Origin: Enterobacteria phage GEC-3S
Direction: 5' to 3' (one strand)
Sequence record: HE978309
DNA length: 64,000 nucleotides
Of this stretch, positions 39,513 through 44,864 are shown in pieces. The notes beneath the pieces were generated by a model. That model saw only the letters and a list, made by a program, of their open reading frames with translations. It was not told the DNA's origin and made no database searches. A program made the translations under genes and the position numbers. Each line of letters opens with the position of its first letter. The first letter of the stretch is position 1.

Positions 39513-39554
39513 TGCATTATACACTATTGCGTTACGCTGTCAACTCTTTTTCAA
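39513..39554 (-). promoter_or_regulatory. early promoter (sigma70-like)
   Basis: TTGACA, about 16 nt, TATAAT. Confidence 0.5.
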
Positions 39555-40710
39555 AAGATTTTACGATATACATGATGGTGCTCAATTCGGACGGCGCTAC
39601 TGTCTCTGTGTAGCCATCCGGCATATCTTCTTTCGAGATATAGGAAGTTTTACCTTTCATTGCTTCCTTGATTTTGTTCTCTAATTCTAAGATCTTTTGA
39701 CCGTCTTGTAAAGTCAATTCATAAAAGATCTCATGATCGAACTTTGAAACACGAGATTGGTTTCTCATGCGCTCATGTGTTTCTTTGTTTGTTATTCCAA
39801 ATTTCACGCCAACAAAGGAATCATTGTTGGTTAATTTCTGTATATAAAGAGTTCCTGTCTTTAATGCCTGATAACCATGCTTAGAACACAACGGGCAGCG
39901 TGTTCCGCGATTAACAAAATTATCAATAGTTACATCCCATTCATGGTTACGTTCGCATGTCAGAAGTATTCTTGTTAATGCACCTTTCCACTTTCCTGAA
40001 ATCCCAATAAATTTTAGTCTGTTGGTTTCGCATATTTTTTCAATTTGTTTTAATCGGTCACTTTTTGTTATTGGTGCTGTTCCGCTACATTTGCGACACC
40101 GACGACCTAGTTTGAACTTATCATAACTTTGTTCGTAAATGTGATTATTAGGACACTCAAATTTAAGTTTAGTTTTTGTTCCTCTCCATTCCCCAATTAT
40201 ACCCAAAAATTTATAATCTCCTTTATTTTCATTTATATAAGATAAGGAATCTTCTTTATCATGCATCTTGCCCCCGTTACATAAAGGACATCTTGTTTTT
40301 TGATGAATGAAATCTGTATATGTTGGTTGGTATGTGTGTCCGTTTGTACAGTTCATAATGAGTCTTGTTCTGCTATTTTTATACTCCCCACCAACAAAAC
40401 CAACAAATACATCGTTTGTTTCTTGTTTTATTCTTTCTATCACATTGTTTGGGTTTAATCTTTGAGAATCAACCACACATTTCTTACACGAAACTTTTTT
40501 CCTGATATTTGCTAGAGTTGATGTGTATTCATGCTTGTTATTACATAATATAAGAGCTTTTGTTTTGAGACCAGACCATTCTCCAACAAACCCCATGAAA
40601 GAATAACCAACTTCCAAACATGATTTTTTTACAACATTTTCCCAATAGAAGGGAGTTTTCGTGTTTCCTTTTATTTCTATACGAATCTCATGTGCTTGAC
40701 GTACTAACAT
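39532..40710 (-). CDS. protein with four zinc-ribbon repeats and a C-terminal T5orf172/GIY-YIG-like domain
   Basis: ORF track 39532..40755; start MLVRQAHEIR with GGAGGA RBS; four repeats of G..G.W.G..TK....C...H.Y...(F)....RC..C; C-terminal GTLYIQKL...VGVKFGITN. Confidence 0.55.
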   Translation of the reverse strand: MLVRQAHEIRIEIKGNTKTPFYWENVVKKSCLEVGYSFMGFVGEWSGLKTKALILCNNKHEYTSTLANIRKKVSCKKCVVDSQRLNPNNVIERIKQETNDVFVGFVGGEYKNSRTRLIMNCTNGHTYQPTYTDFIHQKTRCPLCNGGKMHDKEDSLSYINENKGDYKFLGIIGEWRGTKTKLKFECPNNHIYEQSYDKFKLGRRCRKCSGTAPITKSDRLKQIEKICETNRLKFIGISGKWKGALTRILLTCERNHEWDVTIDNFVNRGTRCPLCSKHGYQALKTGTLYIQKLTNNDSFVGVKFGITNKETHERMRNQSRVSKFDHEIFYELTLQDGQKILELENKIKEAMKGKTSYISKEDMPDGYTETVAPSELSTIMYIVKSFEKELTA

Positions 40711-40737
40711 ATTTTTATCCTCCGTTGTTTCGATGAT

Positions 40738-40779
40738 TGTATTATACATTACCACATCAGCATGTCAATACATTTTCAT
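40738..40779 (-). promoter_or_regulatory. early promoter (sigma70-like)
   Basis: TTGACA, 16-17 nt, TATAAT, directly after the gp32 terminator. Confidence 0.5.
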
Positions 40780-40829: not shown

Positions 40830-41804
40830 TTACATCGCTAACAGAGAGTCAAGGTCATCCAGATCAGAAGCGGAGGAAGTACCGCCACCCAGGTCCAGAG
40901 ATGCCATCAGGTCATCAGCGGAAGAATCTAACGCCGTGCTAGCTGCGTTAATACCAACTACAGTGCTAGCTGCGGTAATACCAGAGTCGAATGCATTCAT
41001 CTGTGCGTCAAAATCGTCAAGCTGACTGTTAATCGCTGCCGCAGCACTGGAAGCCGCAGCACCCGCTACCATAGAAACGCCCATAGTTTTCTTAAATTTG
41101 GTTTCCAGTTCATCGAACGGTTTAAACTGGCTAGGCGCTACAATCTCACTCAGATCAACCATGTTTTCCATCAGATATTTCTGATATGCTTCGTCTTCAA
41201 TCTTCGGAAGCTGTGATTGCTGCATGAAACGAGAATCATCATAGTTCTGGTGTTTATCAACCTTCTTAGCTTTCAGGAGGAAGTTAGCACCGGAGAACAC
41301 ACAAGTTACATCTACCGGAACTTCGCCCATGTCGGTATTCACGTTCACCATTGCAACGATCTTATCATAAATTTTCTGACCGAATCGGAATTTGAATACT
41401 TTACCTTCATTTTCTGGTGCTTGAGGATCTTTCAGTACAAGAATGTTTGCGTAGTAAGACGCTTTACGCTTAATCAGTTGCCATTCGGTTTTATCGGTAT
41501 TGTATAGGTCTTTTTCGTTAATATATTTGCACACAGGGCAAGAATCAAAATCACCGTGGGTGCTGGAGCAGTTTTCCCAATACCATTTACCATTAACTTT
41601 GAAGGAATGGTTTACCAGTTTCACAATCGGCAGACCGTCTTCTGTCTTAGACGGCAGGAAGCGAATCAGGGCTTCACCGTTACCTGCTGCATCAGTCTTA
41701 ATCTTCCACTCTTTCGGATCTTCTTTTGAGAAACCGTTGCCACCTTTCAGTGCGGCCAGTTGAGCTTGCAGTTTGGAAGAATCTTGGCGTTTAAACATAT
41801 TCAC
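40830..41804 (-). CDS. 32: gp32 single-stranded DNA-binding protein
   Basis: 324 aa; zinc-binding C/H cluster and acidic Ser/Asp-rich C-terminal tail as in T4 gp32; synteny. Confidence 0.9.
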
Positions 41805-41858: not shown

Positions 41859-42539
41859 TCAACTATTTGTTTCGGCTTTTAATTGAGATATTTCTTTACA
41901 CTCTTTAACTACTTTAACAAATAATGCTCTTGCTTTTGCGGCGTCAATAACAAGTAGTTTCTTGTACGCCTTCATTTTAACACTATAAGTTTGCCAAATC
42001 AAGTCTTTGGCTACCTTGTCGTGTTCGTCGATTATATTTAGAAAGCTATCTAACAACATAAACGACTCAAACGATATAATCCGATTTTGCAGTAGTTTAA
42101 AGATACCGCTAGTTTCGGTTGCGGGATTGTATGTAATTAGCTCTTTAAGAGTAACCCCGCGTTTCTCGGAGAAGTATACCAGACTTTTAATGTCATCGTC
42201 AAATCTTGTTGCTGCATCGGTTATCTTTCCTATGTATTCCATATAAAAGCCGTATGCGTCAACATCAGTGATTTCACCTACCCATGCATCGGTATTAGCT
42301 ACCAGATTGCTTAGGAATAAGAAGTATAATTCTCTTAGATTGTACTTTTCCGCTAATTTTGCGAAATAATACTTATCTCTGCGTTTATTGAATGCGGCAT
42401 CAGACAACCGCATCCTCCAATTGTATTTTACGCAATCATAACGCCCGTTCATATGAGCTTTCATCATGCAATATAACATATACACAGATTTAGCATTAAT
42501 TCGCATATCTGGATCTGGAGGAAGACGGTTTCTGATCAT
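41859..42539 (-). CDS. 59: gp59 helicase loader
   Basis: 226 aa; KSVYMLYCMMKAHMNGRYD...YNWRMRLSDAAFNKRRDKYYF matches T4 gp59. Confidence 0.9.
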   Translation of the reverse strand: MIRNRLPPDPDMRINAKSVYMLYCMMKAHMNGRYDCVKYNWRMRLSDAAFNKRRDKYYFAKLAEKYNLRELYFLFLSNLVANTDAWVGEITDVDAYGFYMEYIGKITDAATRFDDDIKSLVYFSEKRGVTLKELITYNPATETSGIFKLLQNRIISFESFMLLDSFLNIIDEHDKVAKDLIWQTYSVKMKAYKKLLVIDAAKARALFVKVVKECKEISQLKAETNS

Positions 42540-42548
42540 ACATACCCC

Positions 42549-42803
42549 TTAAATATCGAGAGTGTTGGTCGGTTCGTCGATCACTCCCTTCCTGAGCGTT
42601 CTATTTACTATACATTCTTGTGTGATCTTGTCAATAATGGACACCGGAATATACTTCTGATAGTGACCATATTCTATAGAGTTTTCCTCGACAAACTGAG
42701 TTGTCGCTTCAAGATAAGTCAATCCCTCTTCAACAACCAGTTTTTCGATTGCAAGACCGTTTGCTGTTTTATTCGCGGCTTTTACCGCATGTTCATTAAG
42801 CAT
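42549..42803 (-). CDS. 33: gp33 late transcription co-activator
   Basis: ORF track 42549..42818; IEKLVVEEGLTYLEATTQFVEENSI...PTNTLD matches T4 gp33. Confidence 0.8.
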   Translation of the reverse strand: MLNEHAVKAANKTANGLAIEKLVVEEGLTYLEATTQFVEENSIEYGHYQKYIPVSIIDKITQECIVNRTLRKGVIDEPTNTLDI

Positions 42804-43071
42804 TGAACACCCGATCATAGAGTTCTACCGCTTCATCGCGTTCTGCTTCGAAGGTTTCGCGCTGTTGCTGGTGATACAGTTTAAACAGAATGCCCCACAT
42901 TTTACCATCTACACCTAATTCTTCTTTAGCACGCTGTTTGATCTCTTTGATCTTATCGCCATATGCTTCTTGAATGGTTTTCTGATCGCTGGCTTCTTTA
43001 ATCAGTTGTGCCAGGGTATTTCCGTGCGCTGCTTCGTCAAATACTACTTTTTCTTTTTTCTGTTCAGTCAT
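42796..43071 (-). CDS. small protein in the DsbA (dsDNA-binding) position
   Basis: 91 aa, size and position as T4 dsbA; no motif confirmation. Confidence 0.4.
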   Translation of the reverse strand: MTEQKKEKVVFDEAAHGNTLAQLIKEASDQKTIQEAYGDKIKEIKQRAKEELGVDGKMWGILFKLYHQQQRETFEAERDEAVELYDRVFNA

Positions 43072-43075
43072 AATA

Positions 43076-43672
43076 TTAACCCTCTTTCGTCATTAATTGA
43101 AAACCACGTTCAGCTTTTGAAATTTCGCTAGGACTTAAATCGTCACCCACATATTCTAGCATCATTTCTCGGATAATGTCAAGTGCTTTTTCATCGCCTG
43201 ATTTTAACTCAAACTCAAGTTCATAGTGAGCATCTCCCATTACTTCGCCGACTTTGCAATAATAGAAAGTGTCTCTGCACATTTCCACTATACCACAACC
43301 CATATCTAGAGTCAATGACTTGCGGTATGTCATTACTTGAAGTAAAGGAACGATAAGGTCGGAGTTTACGCCTAGACTATCAACATAGTGATAGAAATCA
43401 TCCATTGTTGAAAAAGTAATTTCTTCTCGGTTGAATAGTCCAGATTCACCATCACCTATTTTGACCATGATCAATGATCTATTAACGTCAAGTCGTGCAT
43501 AAATTCCTTTTTGACGTAGAGCATGATCTTTGGTATCATAATAAAATTCGTGTTTTATAATGTTATCTCGGTCTACGAGATTGTACCCGTCATACATTGC
43601 TACCCACAAATCACAGATTGTTTCGACGCCAATTTGTGAGTGTGCATAGTATTTTAATTCAAGTTCTTTCAT
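43076..43672 (-). CDS. CYTH-domain (triphosphate tunnel metalloenzyme-like) protein
   Basis: 198 aa; N-terminal ELELKYY (ExExK), EFYYDTKDHALRQKGIYARLD, YELEFELK. Confidence 0.5.
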   Translation of the reverse strand: MKELELKYYAHSQIGVETICDLWVAMYDGYNLVDRDNIIKHEFYYDTKDHALRQKGIYARLDVNRSLIMVKIGDGESGLFNREEITFSTMDDFYHYVDSLGVNSDLIVPLLQVMTYRKSLTLDMGCGIVEMCRDTFYYCKVGEVMGDAHYELEFELKSGDEKALDIIREMMLEYVGDDLSPSEISKAERGFQLMTKEG

Positions 43673-43682
43673 GTGTCAACCC

Positions 43683-44630
43683 TTAGAACTCACCAATTTT
43701 CTGCAACATTTTAACTAACGCATTTGTTACAAAATAGTTATAAATTTTACCGCGTGGTGCTGGTTTAGATTTTTCCCATGACTCCAGAATCTGAGTCTTA
43801 ATATTGTCTGGGATGTAATCGAAATCAATAAGTTCGCGGTTTTCGTCAAAGCGTCGTGCTTCTTCCTCTGTCATTAAAGACTTTGGATCTTCGGCATCGA
43901 AAATTTGCTCTAACCATTTGGTTGCAACCGGTTTAGCTCGTTCCCCTTCCAGTCGAGAGATAATGAAATCACTACGACACTTGACAGAAGCCACACCGTC
44001 TTTTGCGTCACCCTTAACACATTTTACCATAAGGTCTTTGTAAGGGCTACCATATTTGCATTTCTTCCATGCTTTCTGTACTGGCGCCCACTGTTTCACG
44101 TTTTTGTATTTGTGCAACTGCGTGTAGTCACCATCACCGGAGTTGATCAGCACCTGGCGACCTTCTACAGAAAACTTTTTAGTTAATACAGCGATTATAT
44201 CATCCGCTTCAACTTTGTCAACCTTAATAACGTGATAAGGCATATTCTCTTTAAACTCTTCGGTGATCTTATTGATCGCAGCAAAGATCATCTCCCAATC
44301 ACGCGGATCTGCGTCTCGCTTTTCCTTACGGTTGCGTTTATAGTAAGGGGCGATATCACGTCGCCAGTAACCTTTGCTTGAATCAAAAGCAAGTACCGTA
44401 ATAGGGTATTGCTCTTTGAATTTTGTCATATTATAACGCATGGTGTCAAGAATAAGATGACGGATCATGCCTTCATTAATAGGATCTTCCGGTTTAAATG
44501 TATGCGAGATAGTAGCAATCATAAGCTGTGACATATCAATCAAATGCACACCTTCCGGCAGTTTATCTTCTGGATCATCGAAGAAATCATTAAGTGTAGC
44601 GGTAGTTTTTGTAAACGGGTTATATGTCAT
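43683..44630 (-). CDS. rnh: RNase H (5'-3' exonuclease / flap endonuclease)
   Basis: 315 aa; SKGYWRRDIAPYYKRNR, INSGDGDYTQLHKY, DFDYIPDNI match T4 RNase H. Confidence 0.9.
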   Translation of the reverse strand: MTYNPFTKTTATLNDFFDDPEDKLPEGVHLIDMSQLMIATISHTFKPEDPINEGMIRHLILDTMRYNMTKFKEQYPITVLAFDSSKGYWRRDIAPYYKRNRKEKRDADPRDWEMIFAAINKITEEFKENMPYHVIKVDKVEADDIIAVLTKKFSVEGRQVLINSGDGDYTQLHKYKNVKQWAPVQKAWKKCKYGSPYKDLMVKCVKGDAKDGVASVKCRSDFIISRLEGERAKPVATKWLEQIFDAEDPKSLMTEEEARRFDENRELIDFDYIPDNIKTQILESWEKSKPAPRGKIYNYFVTNALVKMLQKIGEF

Positions 44631-44632
44631 AA

Positions 44633-44818
44633 TTAAGTTCTCTCCACTCTCACAACAACATATTCGCCAAACGAGTTAGATACTTCACGATCATAACCGT
44701 ACTTCTCCATAACTCGCAGAATTGCATTGTTTAATTCGGCGCGGAAATAATTGTAATCCTTATCAGGGATTCTGTCAACTACCCATTTTGCACCGTCTGA
44801 CAAATCAACTTTAACCAT
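44633..44818 (-). CDS. hypothetical protein (61 aa)
   Basis: ORF track; coupled to rnh. Confidence 0.45.
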   Translation of the reverse strand: MVKVDLSDGAKWVVDRIPDKDYNYFRAELNNAILRVMEKYGYDREVSNSFGEYVVVRVERT

Positions 44819-44856: not shown

Positions 44857-44864
44857 TATAAATA
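44857..44864 (+). promoter_or_regulatory. T4-type late promoter (TATAAATA) for gene 34
   Basis: exact TATAAATA about 29 nt upstream of the gp34 ATG; AAAGGAGA RBS. Confidence 0.6.

What the first reader, a model, noticed from the sequence alone, without database searches (positions are those of the whole stretch)
43076..43672. CYTH-domain protein inserted between the dsbA-position gene and rnh
The 198-aa ORF has an N-terminal ExExK (ELELKYY), a central ...YYDTKDHALRQKGIYARLD and a C-terminal ELEFELK, the arrangement of CYTH triphosphate-tunnel enzymes. T4 has no such gene between gene 33/dsbA and rnh as far as I recall, so this looks like an insertion into a conserved replication block. The substrate is unknown.
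Basis: partly seen in the sequence, partly recalled or inferred. Interest (0 to 1): 0.5.

Follow-up and report, generated by a model that had tools for sequence, protein, structure and literature searches.

The report
Stand-alone YgiF-like triphosphatase gene in Krischvirus
This is a real gene for a small "triphosphate tunnel" enzyme, most like the catalytic half of E. coli YgiF, that RB49-like phages carry between rnh and dsbA; its domain was reported in 2006, and its substrate and role in infection remain untested.

The parts
43076..43672 (-). Complete CYTH/TTM gene (198 aa), orthologue of RB49p245 / RB49ORF244c
   Evidence: ORF list. Pfam CYTH 27.6 bits. phrog_14893, E=2e-133. 94-95% amino-acid identity to the RB49 and G5211 proteins.
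43652..43666 (-). Codons E3-L4-E5-L6-K7: the N-terminal ExExK strand. E3 and E5 are predicted ligands of catalytic metal 2.
   Evidence: Invariant in A1 and A2. Align to YgiF E4/E6/K8. Residue roles taken from PMC4641920.
43487..43501 (-). Codons Y58-A59-R60-L61-D62: the strand that carries R-x-R in other TTMs and has a single Arg here.
   Evidence: R60 is invariant, position 58 varies (Y/S/V/I) and position 62 is D or N. The register is disputed between hhalign and HMMER/BLAST.
43202..43222 (-). Codons E151-K157 (ELEFELK): the acidic strand. E153 is the predicted metal-1 ligand and E155 a metal-2 ligand.
   Evidence: Invariant. Align to YgiF E158/E160/E162. Roles.
43088..43120 (-). [quoted passage not shown] The protein ends just after it, with no CHAD domain.
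   Evidence: Helix 186-195 in the model. The SKAxRG[FY]xL motif is shared with YgiF 190-198. YgiF continues into a linker and CHAD domain.
43210..43650 (-). Divergent, recombining core of the gene (about codons 9-150). Allele classes differ by 15-55% in DNA, while the flanks are 95-100% identical.
   Evidence: Sliding-window identity. dN/dS.
43680..43684 (-). AAGGG ribosome-binding site, 7 nt before the ATG and immediately after the rnh stop codon
   Evidence: Read directly from the sequence.
43683..44630 (-). rnh (T4 RNase H / 5'-3' exonuclease), the upstream neighbour, 10 nt away
   Evidence: Pfam RNaseH_C and 5_3_exonuc_N.
42796..43071 (-). dsbA, the downstream neighbour, 4 nt away
   Evidence: Pfam Phage_DsbA.
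44194..44221 (-). Candidate sigma70-type early promoter (TTGACA-16-TATAAT, 12/12, with TG) inside rnh, on the gene's strand and upstream of it. Consensus match only.
   Evidence: There is no minus-strand terminator-like site between it and the gene.

Best explanation
The ORF encodes a soluble, single-domain triphosphate tunnel metalloenzyme (CYTH superfamily). It corresponds to the catalytic tunnel domain of E. coli YgiF without the polyphosphate-binding CHAD domain. Inferred mechanism, by homology with YgiF and AtTTM3: a triphosphate-Mg2+/Mn2+ complex binds in the centre of a closed eight-stranded beta-tunnel. It is held by E153 (metal site 1) and by K7, R60, K71, R82, R117, K186 and R189. 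[quoted passage not shown] The default substrate is inorganic triphosphate (PPPi gives PPi + Pi) or another small triphosphate-bearing metabolite. An ancestor of the Krischvirus lineage acquired the gene between rnh and dsbA. It is probably transcribed with that leftward early/replication gene block. It has kept its tunnel lining while its exterior diverged and recombined. Shown here: the gene is real, the fold and catalytic residues are present, it is a lineage-specific insertion, and it is under purifying selection. Inferred: catalytic activity, substrate, expression timing and benefit to the phage.
Against: No biochemical or genetic data exist for any member. Sequence identity to YgiF is only 25%. 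The family is very isolated: only 17 hits at E<=1e-3 among 1.84 billion representatives. The canonical R-x-R pair has lost one Arg in the whole lineage, so substrate preference may differ from YgiF. The physiological role of PPPi hydrolysis is doubtful even for YgiF, because host pyrophosphatase does most of it, so a phage benefit from PPPase activity is not obvious. One isolate (G2494) has a frameshifted copy.
Confidence: 0.6

Rival explanations
1. It is a nucleotide- or nucleic-acid-directed triphosphatase used in host takeover or counter-defence. Possible substrates are a triphosphate-bearing alarmone or immune signal, a toxic nucleotide analogue, or the 5'-triphosphate of RNA (host mRNA or the pppRNA primers that the neighbouring RNase H removes).
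For: TTMs include RNA triphosphatases and NTP-hydrolysing members. The lineage-specific loss of one tunnel Arg and the gain of an invariant inward Lys (K40) suggest a tunnel that differs from YgiF. The gene evolves 2-3 times faster than its neighbours and swaps alleles by recombination, as accessory host-interaction genes often do. It sits immediately downstream of rnh in every carrier.
Confidence: 0.22
2. It is a class IV (CyaB-type) adenylate cyclase that makes cAMP in the infected cell, as several GenBank records annotate it.
For: Several Krischvirus records name it 'adenylate cyclase'. CyaB belongs to the same superfamily and shares the two metal sites.
Confidence: 0.06
3. It is a catalytically dead or decaying TTM fold, either a binding or structural protein (as Med18/Med20 are) or a dispensable remnant.
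For: One Arg of the R-x-R pair is missing. If the HMMER register is right, the missing one is the catalytic Arg. Constraint is relaxed relative to the neighbours. G2494 carries a frameshift.
Against: All four metal-binding Glu residues, K7, K71, R82, R117, K186 and R189 are invariant down to 24% identity. Conservation is concentrated on the tunnel lining. omega is 0.25, and the gene has been retained across a clade whose core genes have diverged to 69-80% identity.
Confidence: 0.07

Closest known systems
E. coli YgiF (P30871; PDB 5a60/5a61), CYTH-CHAD inorganic triphosphatase
   Different: Identity is only 25%. The phage protein stops after the plug helix and lacks the about 230-aa CHAD domain. 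It has one Arg instead of R56/R58, plus an extra invariant K40. It is phage-encoded and not a recent capture from the host.
RB49 gene product RB49p245 / RB49ORF244c (NP_891816.1) and phrog_14893
   Same: It is the orthologue: 94% amino-acid identity and the same position between rnh and dsbA. phrog_14893 matches at 2e-133 over the full length. It is already flagged as similar to ygiF and as a Pfam CYTH hit at E=0.0026 (Nolan et al. 2006).
   Different: Nothing of substance differs. The window's allele belongs to the RB49/JSE/G5211 class, not to the Phi1/JK32 or Skers classes.
Short-chain TTM polyphosphatases and thiamine triphosphatase (AtTTM3, HpAC1, Sulfolobus TTM, BH2851, ThTPase)
   Different: The similarity is lower than to YgiF, and no sequence-level hit was found.
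Class IV adenylate cyclase CyaB (PDB 2fjt, 3n10)
   Same: It belongs to the same superfamily and has both metal sites.
Other phage CYTH-like proteins (Aeromonas phage Aeh1 ORF004c, Aeromonas phage 65.2, uncultured Caudovirales)
   Same: They are small stand-alone CYTH-like proteins in T4-like and other tailed phages.
   Different: They are unrelated in sequence at tblastn E<=1e-5, sit at a different locus (Aeh1: next to gene 39), and are of a shorter type. Aeh1 ORF004c is below the Pfam cut-off (17 bits).

Membership tests
CYTH / triphosphate tunnel metalloenzyme superfamily (Pfam PF01928) | Profile match above the curated threshold | tested here: met
   27.6 bits against a gathering score of 23.2, E=3.1e-6, residues 36-190. 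hhalign probability 99.9% to cellular CYTH proteins.
CYTH / triphosphate tunnel metalloenzyme superfamily (Pfam PF01928) | N-terminal ExExK strand | tested here: met
   E3, E5 and K7 are invariant in the family and in distant relatives.
CYTH / triphosphate tunnel metalloenzyme superfamily (Pfam PF01928) | C-terminal acidic strand supplying the metal-1 Glu and a metal-2 Glu | tested here: met
   E151, E153 and E155 are invariant. E153 aligns to YgiF E160 and E155 to YgiF E162.
CYTH / triphosphate tunnel metalloenzyme superfamily (Pfam PF01928) | Closed eight-stranded antiparallel beta-tunnel with a C-terminal plug helix | tested here: met
CYTH / triphosphate tunnel metalloenzyme superfamily (Pfam PF01928) | Catalytic Arg of the R-x-R strand (YgiF R56 / AtTTM3 R52) | tested here: inconclusive
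   hhalign, the invariant Y-to-R spacing of 16 and the Gly at +12 all place R60 on R56. phmmer, BLAST and hmmsearch against YgiF alone place Y58 there. No coordinates were available to superpose.
CYTH / triphosphate tunnel metalloenzyme superfamily (Pfam PF01928) | Second Arg of the R-x-R pair | tested here: not met
   Only one Arg is present in [YSVI]-A-R-[LIV]-[DN] in every phage-lineage member, whichever register is used. The equivalent Arg (R54) is dispensable in AtTTM3, so this does not argue against activity.
CYTH / triphosphate tunnel metalloenzyme superfamily (Pfam PF01928) | Divalent-metal-dependent action on a triphosphate substrate | not testable with these tools
   This needs an enzyme assay.
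YgiF-type CYTH-CHAD inorganic triphosphatase | C-terminal CHAD (polyphosphate-binding) domain | tested here: not met
   The protein is 198 aa and ends 3 residues after the plug helix, whereas YgiF is 433 aa with CHAD after residue 221. It therefore works like the YgiF tunnel domain but is not a member of the two-domain family.
YgiF-type CYTH-CHAD inorganic triphosphatase | Specific PPPi hydrolysis to PPi + Pi | not testable with these tools
   This is inferred only, from YgiF being the nearest structural and sequence neighbour.
Class IV adenylate cyclase (CyaB) | Closest relationship to characterised CyaB enzymes | tested here: not met
Class IV adenylate cyclase (CyaB) | His ligand of metal 2 (CyaB His-122) and cAMP synthesis | not tested
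   No residue-level alignment to CyaB was available, and the activity needs an assay.
Cet1-type RNA 5'-triphosphatase | Closest relationship to RNA triphosphatases | tested here: not met

The most novel reading that the evidence does not exclude
The enzyme is not a housekeeping PPPase. It is instead a counter-defence or host-takeover factor whose remodelled tunnel (one Arg lost, K40 gained) removes the terminal phosphate from a triphosphate-bearing nucleotide signal, a toxic nucleotide analogue or 5'-ppp RNA. Its allele shuffling among Krischviruses would then reflect conflict with host factors.
Probability: 0.15. Interest if true: 0.7.

Novelty: already known. Interest (0 to 1): 0.25.

Why it matters
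As it stands, this is an accurately spotted but long-annotated accessory gene. It shows that the RB49 lineage keeps a YgiF-like triphosphatase within its replication and late-transcription gene block. It would matter more if the substrate turned out not to be PPPi. No phage CYTH enzyme has been characterised. The physiological role of PPPi and of YgiF is itself unresolved. A phage that keeps such an enzyme while diversifying its surface offers a tractable way to ask what triphosphate compound matters during infection. The practical value now is to correct the 'adenylate cyclase' annotations in several GenBank records to 'CYTH/TTM-family triphosphatase (YgiF-like)'.

Tried and rejected
1. Adenylate cyclase reading: rejected as the leading model on structural ranking and on the literature.
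2. Defence or anti-defence family membership: PADLOC gave no hit and NCBIfam gave none.
3. Positive or diversifying selection: Nei-Gojobori omega is below 1 in every partition, so the hot-spot reflects weaker constraint plus imported alleles, not demonstrable adaptive change.
4. Search for wider phage distribution: tblastn against 50,697 phage records found only Krischvirus. A profile scan of IMG/VR found only three loci, all Krischvirus-like. BFVD found only remote phage CYTH folds.
5. Recent capture from the E. coli host: rejected, because identity to YgiF is only 25-27% and the nearest cellular relatives (archaeal and bacterial, about 30%) are no closer.
6. Late-promoter control: the only nearby TATAAATA faces gene 34 on the other strand.
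7. Settling the catalytic-Arg register by structure: not possible, because model coordinates are not exposed. The alignment methods disagree.
8. Literature search for any functional study of a phage CYTH/TTM protein: none found.

Full report
**What is there**

The window is a Krischvirus (RB49-like T4 relative). The 2.5 kb around the finding is 97.7% identical to RB49, and 57 phage records match at over 90%.

On the minus strand the gene order is: a 61-aa ORF (44633-44818), rnh (43683-44630), the 198-aa ORF (43076-43672), dsbA (42796-43071), gene 33 (42549-42818), gene 59 (41859-42539) and gene 32 (40830-41804). Gene 34 runs divergently on the plus strand from 44893.

The ORF starts with ATG. 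An AAGGG element lies 7 nt upstream and directly follows the rnh stop codon. The ORF ends 4 nt before the dsbA ATG.

**Is it CYTH?**

Yes, on every test.
- Pfam CYTH scores 27.6 bits (gathering score 23.2, E=3.1e-6) over residues 36-190.
- An exhaustive HMMER search of 1.84 billion representatives finds only 17 proteins at E<=1e-3, so the family is isolated. Beyond the phage lineage, those hits are small cellular proteins, and the two checked are Pfam CYTH.
- A profile of the phage lineage aligns to a profile of these cellular proteins plus the YgiF tunnel domain with 99.9% probability over 191 columns.
- An AlphaFold2 model built on 19 sequences is confident (pLDDT 94.7, pTM 0.88). It shows eight long strands plus a C-terminal helix.
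- Foldseek agrees, with 5a60 at E=7.6e-13.
- YgiF is the only solved sequence that the phage-lineage profile detects (E=1.7e-8).

**Catalytic equipment**

Martinez et al. 2015 (PMC4641920) define the YgiF residue roles. E160 binds metal 1 with the triphosphate. E4, E6 and E162 bind metal 2, which activates the attacking water. R56 is the essential Arg. K69 helps substrate binding.

By the profile-profile alignment these correspond to E153, E3/E5/E155, R60 and K71. R82, E84, R117, E130, D134, K186 and R189 match further invariant columns. All 13 columns invariant in the cellular set are conserved in the phage protein.

Within the phage family, invariant residues fall at the strand positions predicted to face the tunnel: 27 of 45 inward against 5 of 47 outward (Fisher p=7e-7). 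In the fast-evolving core the split is 19 of 37 against 1 of 40. This is the pattern expected for an enzyme whose tunnel chemistry is under selection.

**Two deviations from YgiF**

1. The protein ends three residues after the plug helix. It therefore has no CHAD domain, which forms the second half of YgiF.
2. The canonical R-x-R pair is reduced to one Arg ([YSVI]-A-R-[LIV]-[DN]) in every phage-lineage member. The methods disagree on which Arg is kept.
   - hhalign, the invariant spacing from the Y-x-D-T motif (16 residues) and a Gly at +12 in all cellular relatives make R60 the catalytic Arg, with D62 replacing the dispensable one.
   - phmmer, BLAST and hmmsearch against YgiF alone put Y58 at the catalytic position.
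   - I favour the first register. The hairpin that must then absorb the 2-residue deletion varies in length across the family, and R60 is the invariant residue. A structural superposition is still needed.
   - K40 is an extra invariant, inward-facing Lys specific to the phage lineage and may compensate (inference).

**Insertion and history**

T4, RB69, Klebsiella phage JD18 and Aeromonas phage 44RR2.8t all have rnh directly next to dsbA. Of 1,581 phage records with a T4-type rnh, only the 57 Krischvirus records have the CYTH gene. IMG/VR adds three Krischvirus-like loci.

Metagenomic contigs carry homologues at 48%, 40% and 34% identity in the same rnh-CYTH-dsbA-33 arrangement, while their dsbA, gp33 and rnh are 69-80% identical to the window. 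So the gene entered this slot in an ancestor of a clade wider than the cultured genus and has been kept since.

It is not a recent capture from E. coli. Identity to YgiF is 25-27%, and the nearest cellular proteins (about 30%) are archaeal or bacterial single-domain CYTH proteins.

**Evolutionary behaviour**

The gene is the divergence hot-spot of the block. Among six Krischviruses (excluding Skers) its dN is 0.074 and its dS 0.30 (omega 0.25). The neighbours have dN 0.000-0.014 and omega 0-0.10.

Against phage Skers, the flanks, the first 25 nt or so and the last 150 nt or so of the gene are 95-100% identical. The core (window about 43210-43650) is only 43-73% identical, with saturated synonymous sites. 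An old, divergent allele was therefore recombined in, with junctions inside the conserved motif-coding ends. Smaller mosaic patches distinguish the RB49/JSE, Phi1 and JK32/MIZ2 types.

omega is below 1 everywhere (exterior helices and loops 0.50, strands 0.16-0.19, C-terminus 0.05). Positive selection is therefore not demonstrated.

One isolate (G2494) has a 1-nt deletion in codon 59. It could be a sequencing error or could show that the gene is dispensable in the laboratory.

**Expression (inferred)**

The gene is co-oriented and tightly packed with rnh and dsbA. No minus-strand terminator-like site intervenes. Several strong sigma70-type consensus matches lie upstream on its strand (for example 44221-44194, 12/12). 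The only nearby T4-type late motif (44857-44864) faces gene 34. Early or continuous transcription with the replication block is the most economical reading.

**Function**

The best-supported mechanism is two-metal hydrolysis of the terminal phosphate of a triphosphate substrate held in the tunnel. PPPi is the default substrate because YgiF is the nearest relative and is a fairly specific PPPase without cyclase activity.

I put about 0.85 on "active TTM phosphohydrolase" and about 0.45 on PPPi or short polyP being the preferred substrate.

What the phage gains is unknown. Host pyrophosphatase already removes most PPPi, and the role of YgiF is itself doubtful. From general knowledge, not tested here: dNTP triphosphohydrolases such as E. 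coli Dgt and anti-phage dGTPases release PPPi, so infected cells may see more of it. Hydrolysing a product would not restore dNTPs, however.

The rival readings remain open:
- A nucleotide-, RNA- or signal-directed triphosphatase, possibly a counter-defence factor. Support comes only from the remodelled tunnel and the fast, recombining evolution.
- A CyaB-type cyclase, which is unlikely on structural ranking and on the history of mis-annotation.
- An inactive fold, which is unlikely given the conservation of the tunnel lining.

**Prior knowledge and verdict**

The RB49 RefSeq record already notes "similar to P45267, P30871, HI1598, ygiF". Nolan et al. 2006 list "RB49ORF244c - CYTH domain, 0.0026" (PMC1524935). 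Later Krischvirus records call it "inorganic triphosphatase" or "adenylate cyclase". I found no functional study.

The finding is therefore correct but already known. What this analysis adds is the firm YgiF-type structural assignment, the missing CHAD domain, the single-Arg tunnel variant and the intragenic allele replacement. Interest is modest (0.25) unless the substrate proves unexpected.

Noticed in passing
window 44633-44818 (-): A 61-aa ORF (phrog_3594, unknown function) lies between rnh and the divergent gene 34. It is a second Krischvirus-lineage insertion: T4, RB69, JD18 and 44RR2.8t have no gene there. It is under strong purifying selection (omega about 0.07).
   Followed up: partly
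window 39532-40755 (-): A 407-aa ORF downstream of gene 32 has four CapR-homology repeats and treble-clef zinc-finger hits (Pfam), and it matches PHROG endonuclease families. It is probably a homing-type endonuclease (RB49p240 'endonuclease'; Skers annotates a GIY-YIG nuclease there).
   Followed up: partly
window 43153-43182 (-) and 43651-43679 (-): Two sigma70-like promoter matches (11/12 each) lie within or at the edge of the CYTH gene. One is in its highly conserved 3' end, about 80 nt upstream of the dsbA ATG. In the other, the -35 hexamer overlaps the spacer between the CYTH RBS and ATG. They are possible internal promoters for dsbA, gene 33 and gene 59, but they are consensus matches only.
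   Followed up: no
window about 43775-43835 (-), 3' part of rnh: A short patch of rnh drops to 66-76% DNA identity against JSE, JK32, MIZ2 and Skers, while the rest of rnh is 93-100% identical. It is a second small mosaic segment just upstream of the CYTH gene.
   Followed up: no
L017 2857-3345 (-) (Aeromonas phage Aeh1 ORF004c): This is a separate 162-aa CYTH-like ORF (MLLEIERKY..., ...AEIELAHE) next to gene 39 in another T4-like phage. It is below the Pfam cut-off (17 bits). It suggests independent acquisition of small TTM-like genes by T4-like phages.
   Followed up: partly
L022 553-653 (Escherichia phage vB_EcoM_G2494, MK327935): A 1-nt deletion at the codon equivalent to A59 splits the CYTH gene into two annotated ORFs. 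Several nearby point differences are also present. It is either a real inactivation or a sequencing error.
   Followed up: partly
protein P0048 (3923 aa; search): A giant protein has six separate stretches matching residues about 121-176 of the query (the acidic ExExExK strand region), at E=7e-6. It may be a repeat protein built from TTM-like strand units, or it may be compositional noise.
   Followed up: no
L002 6802-7398 (phage Skers): Skers carries an HNH homing endonuclease inserted between genes 59 and 32, which the window and RB49 lack. T4 has SegG at the same junction. This junction appears to be a recurrent landing site for mobile endonucleases.
   Followed up: no
L006 6797-8606 (archaeal metagenome contig): The nearest cellular relative, P0046 (CYTH, 31% identity), sits immediately downstream of a PRK-family (uridine kinase/phosphoribulokinase-type) gene and near an RNA ligase and a Nudix gene. 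This may hint at a nucleotide-related context for that CYTH branch.
   Followed up: no
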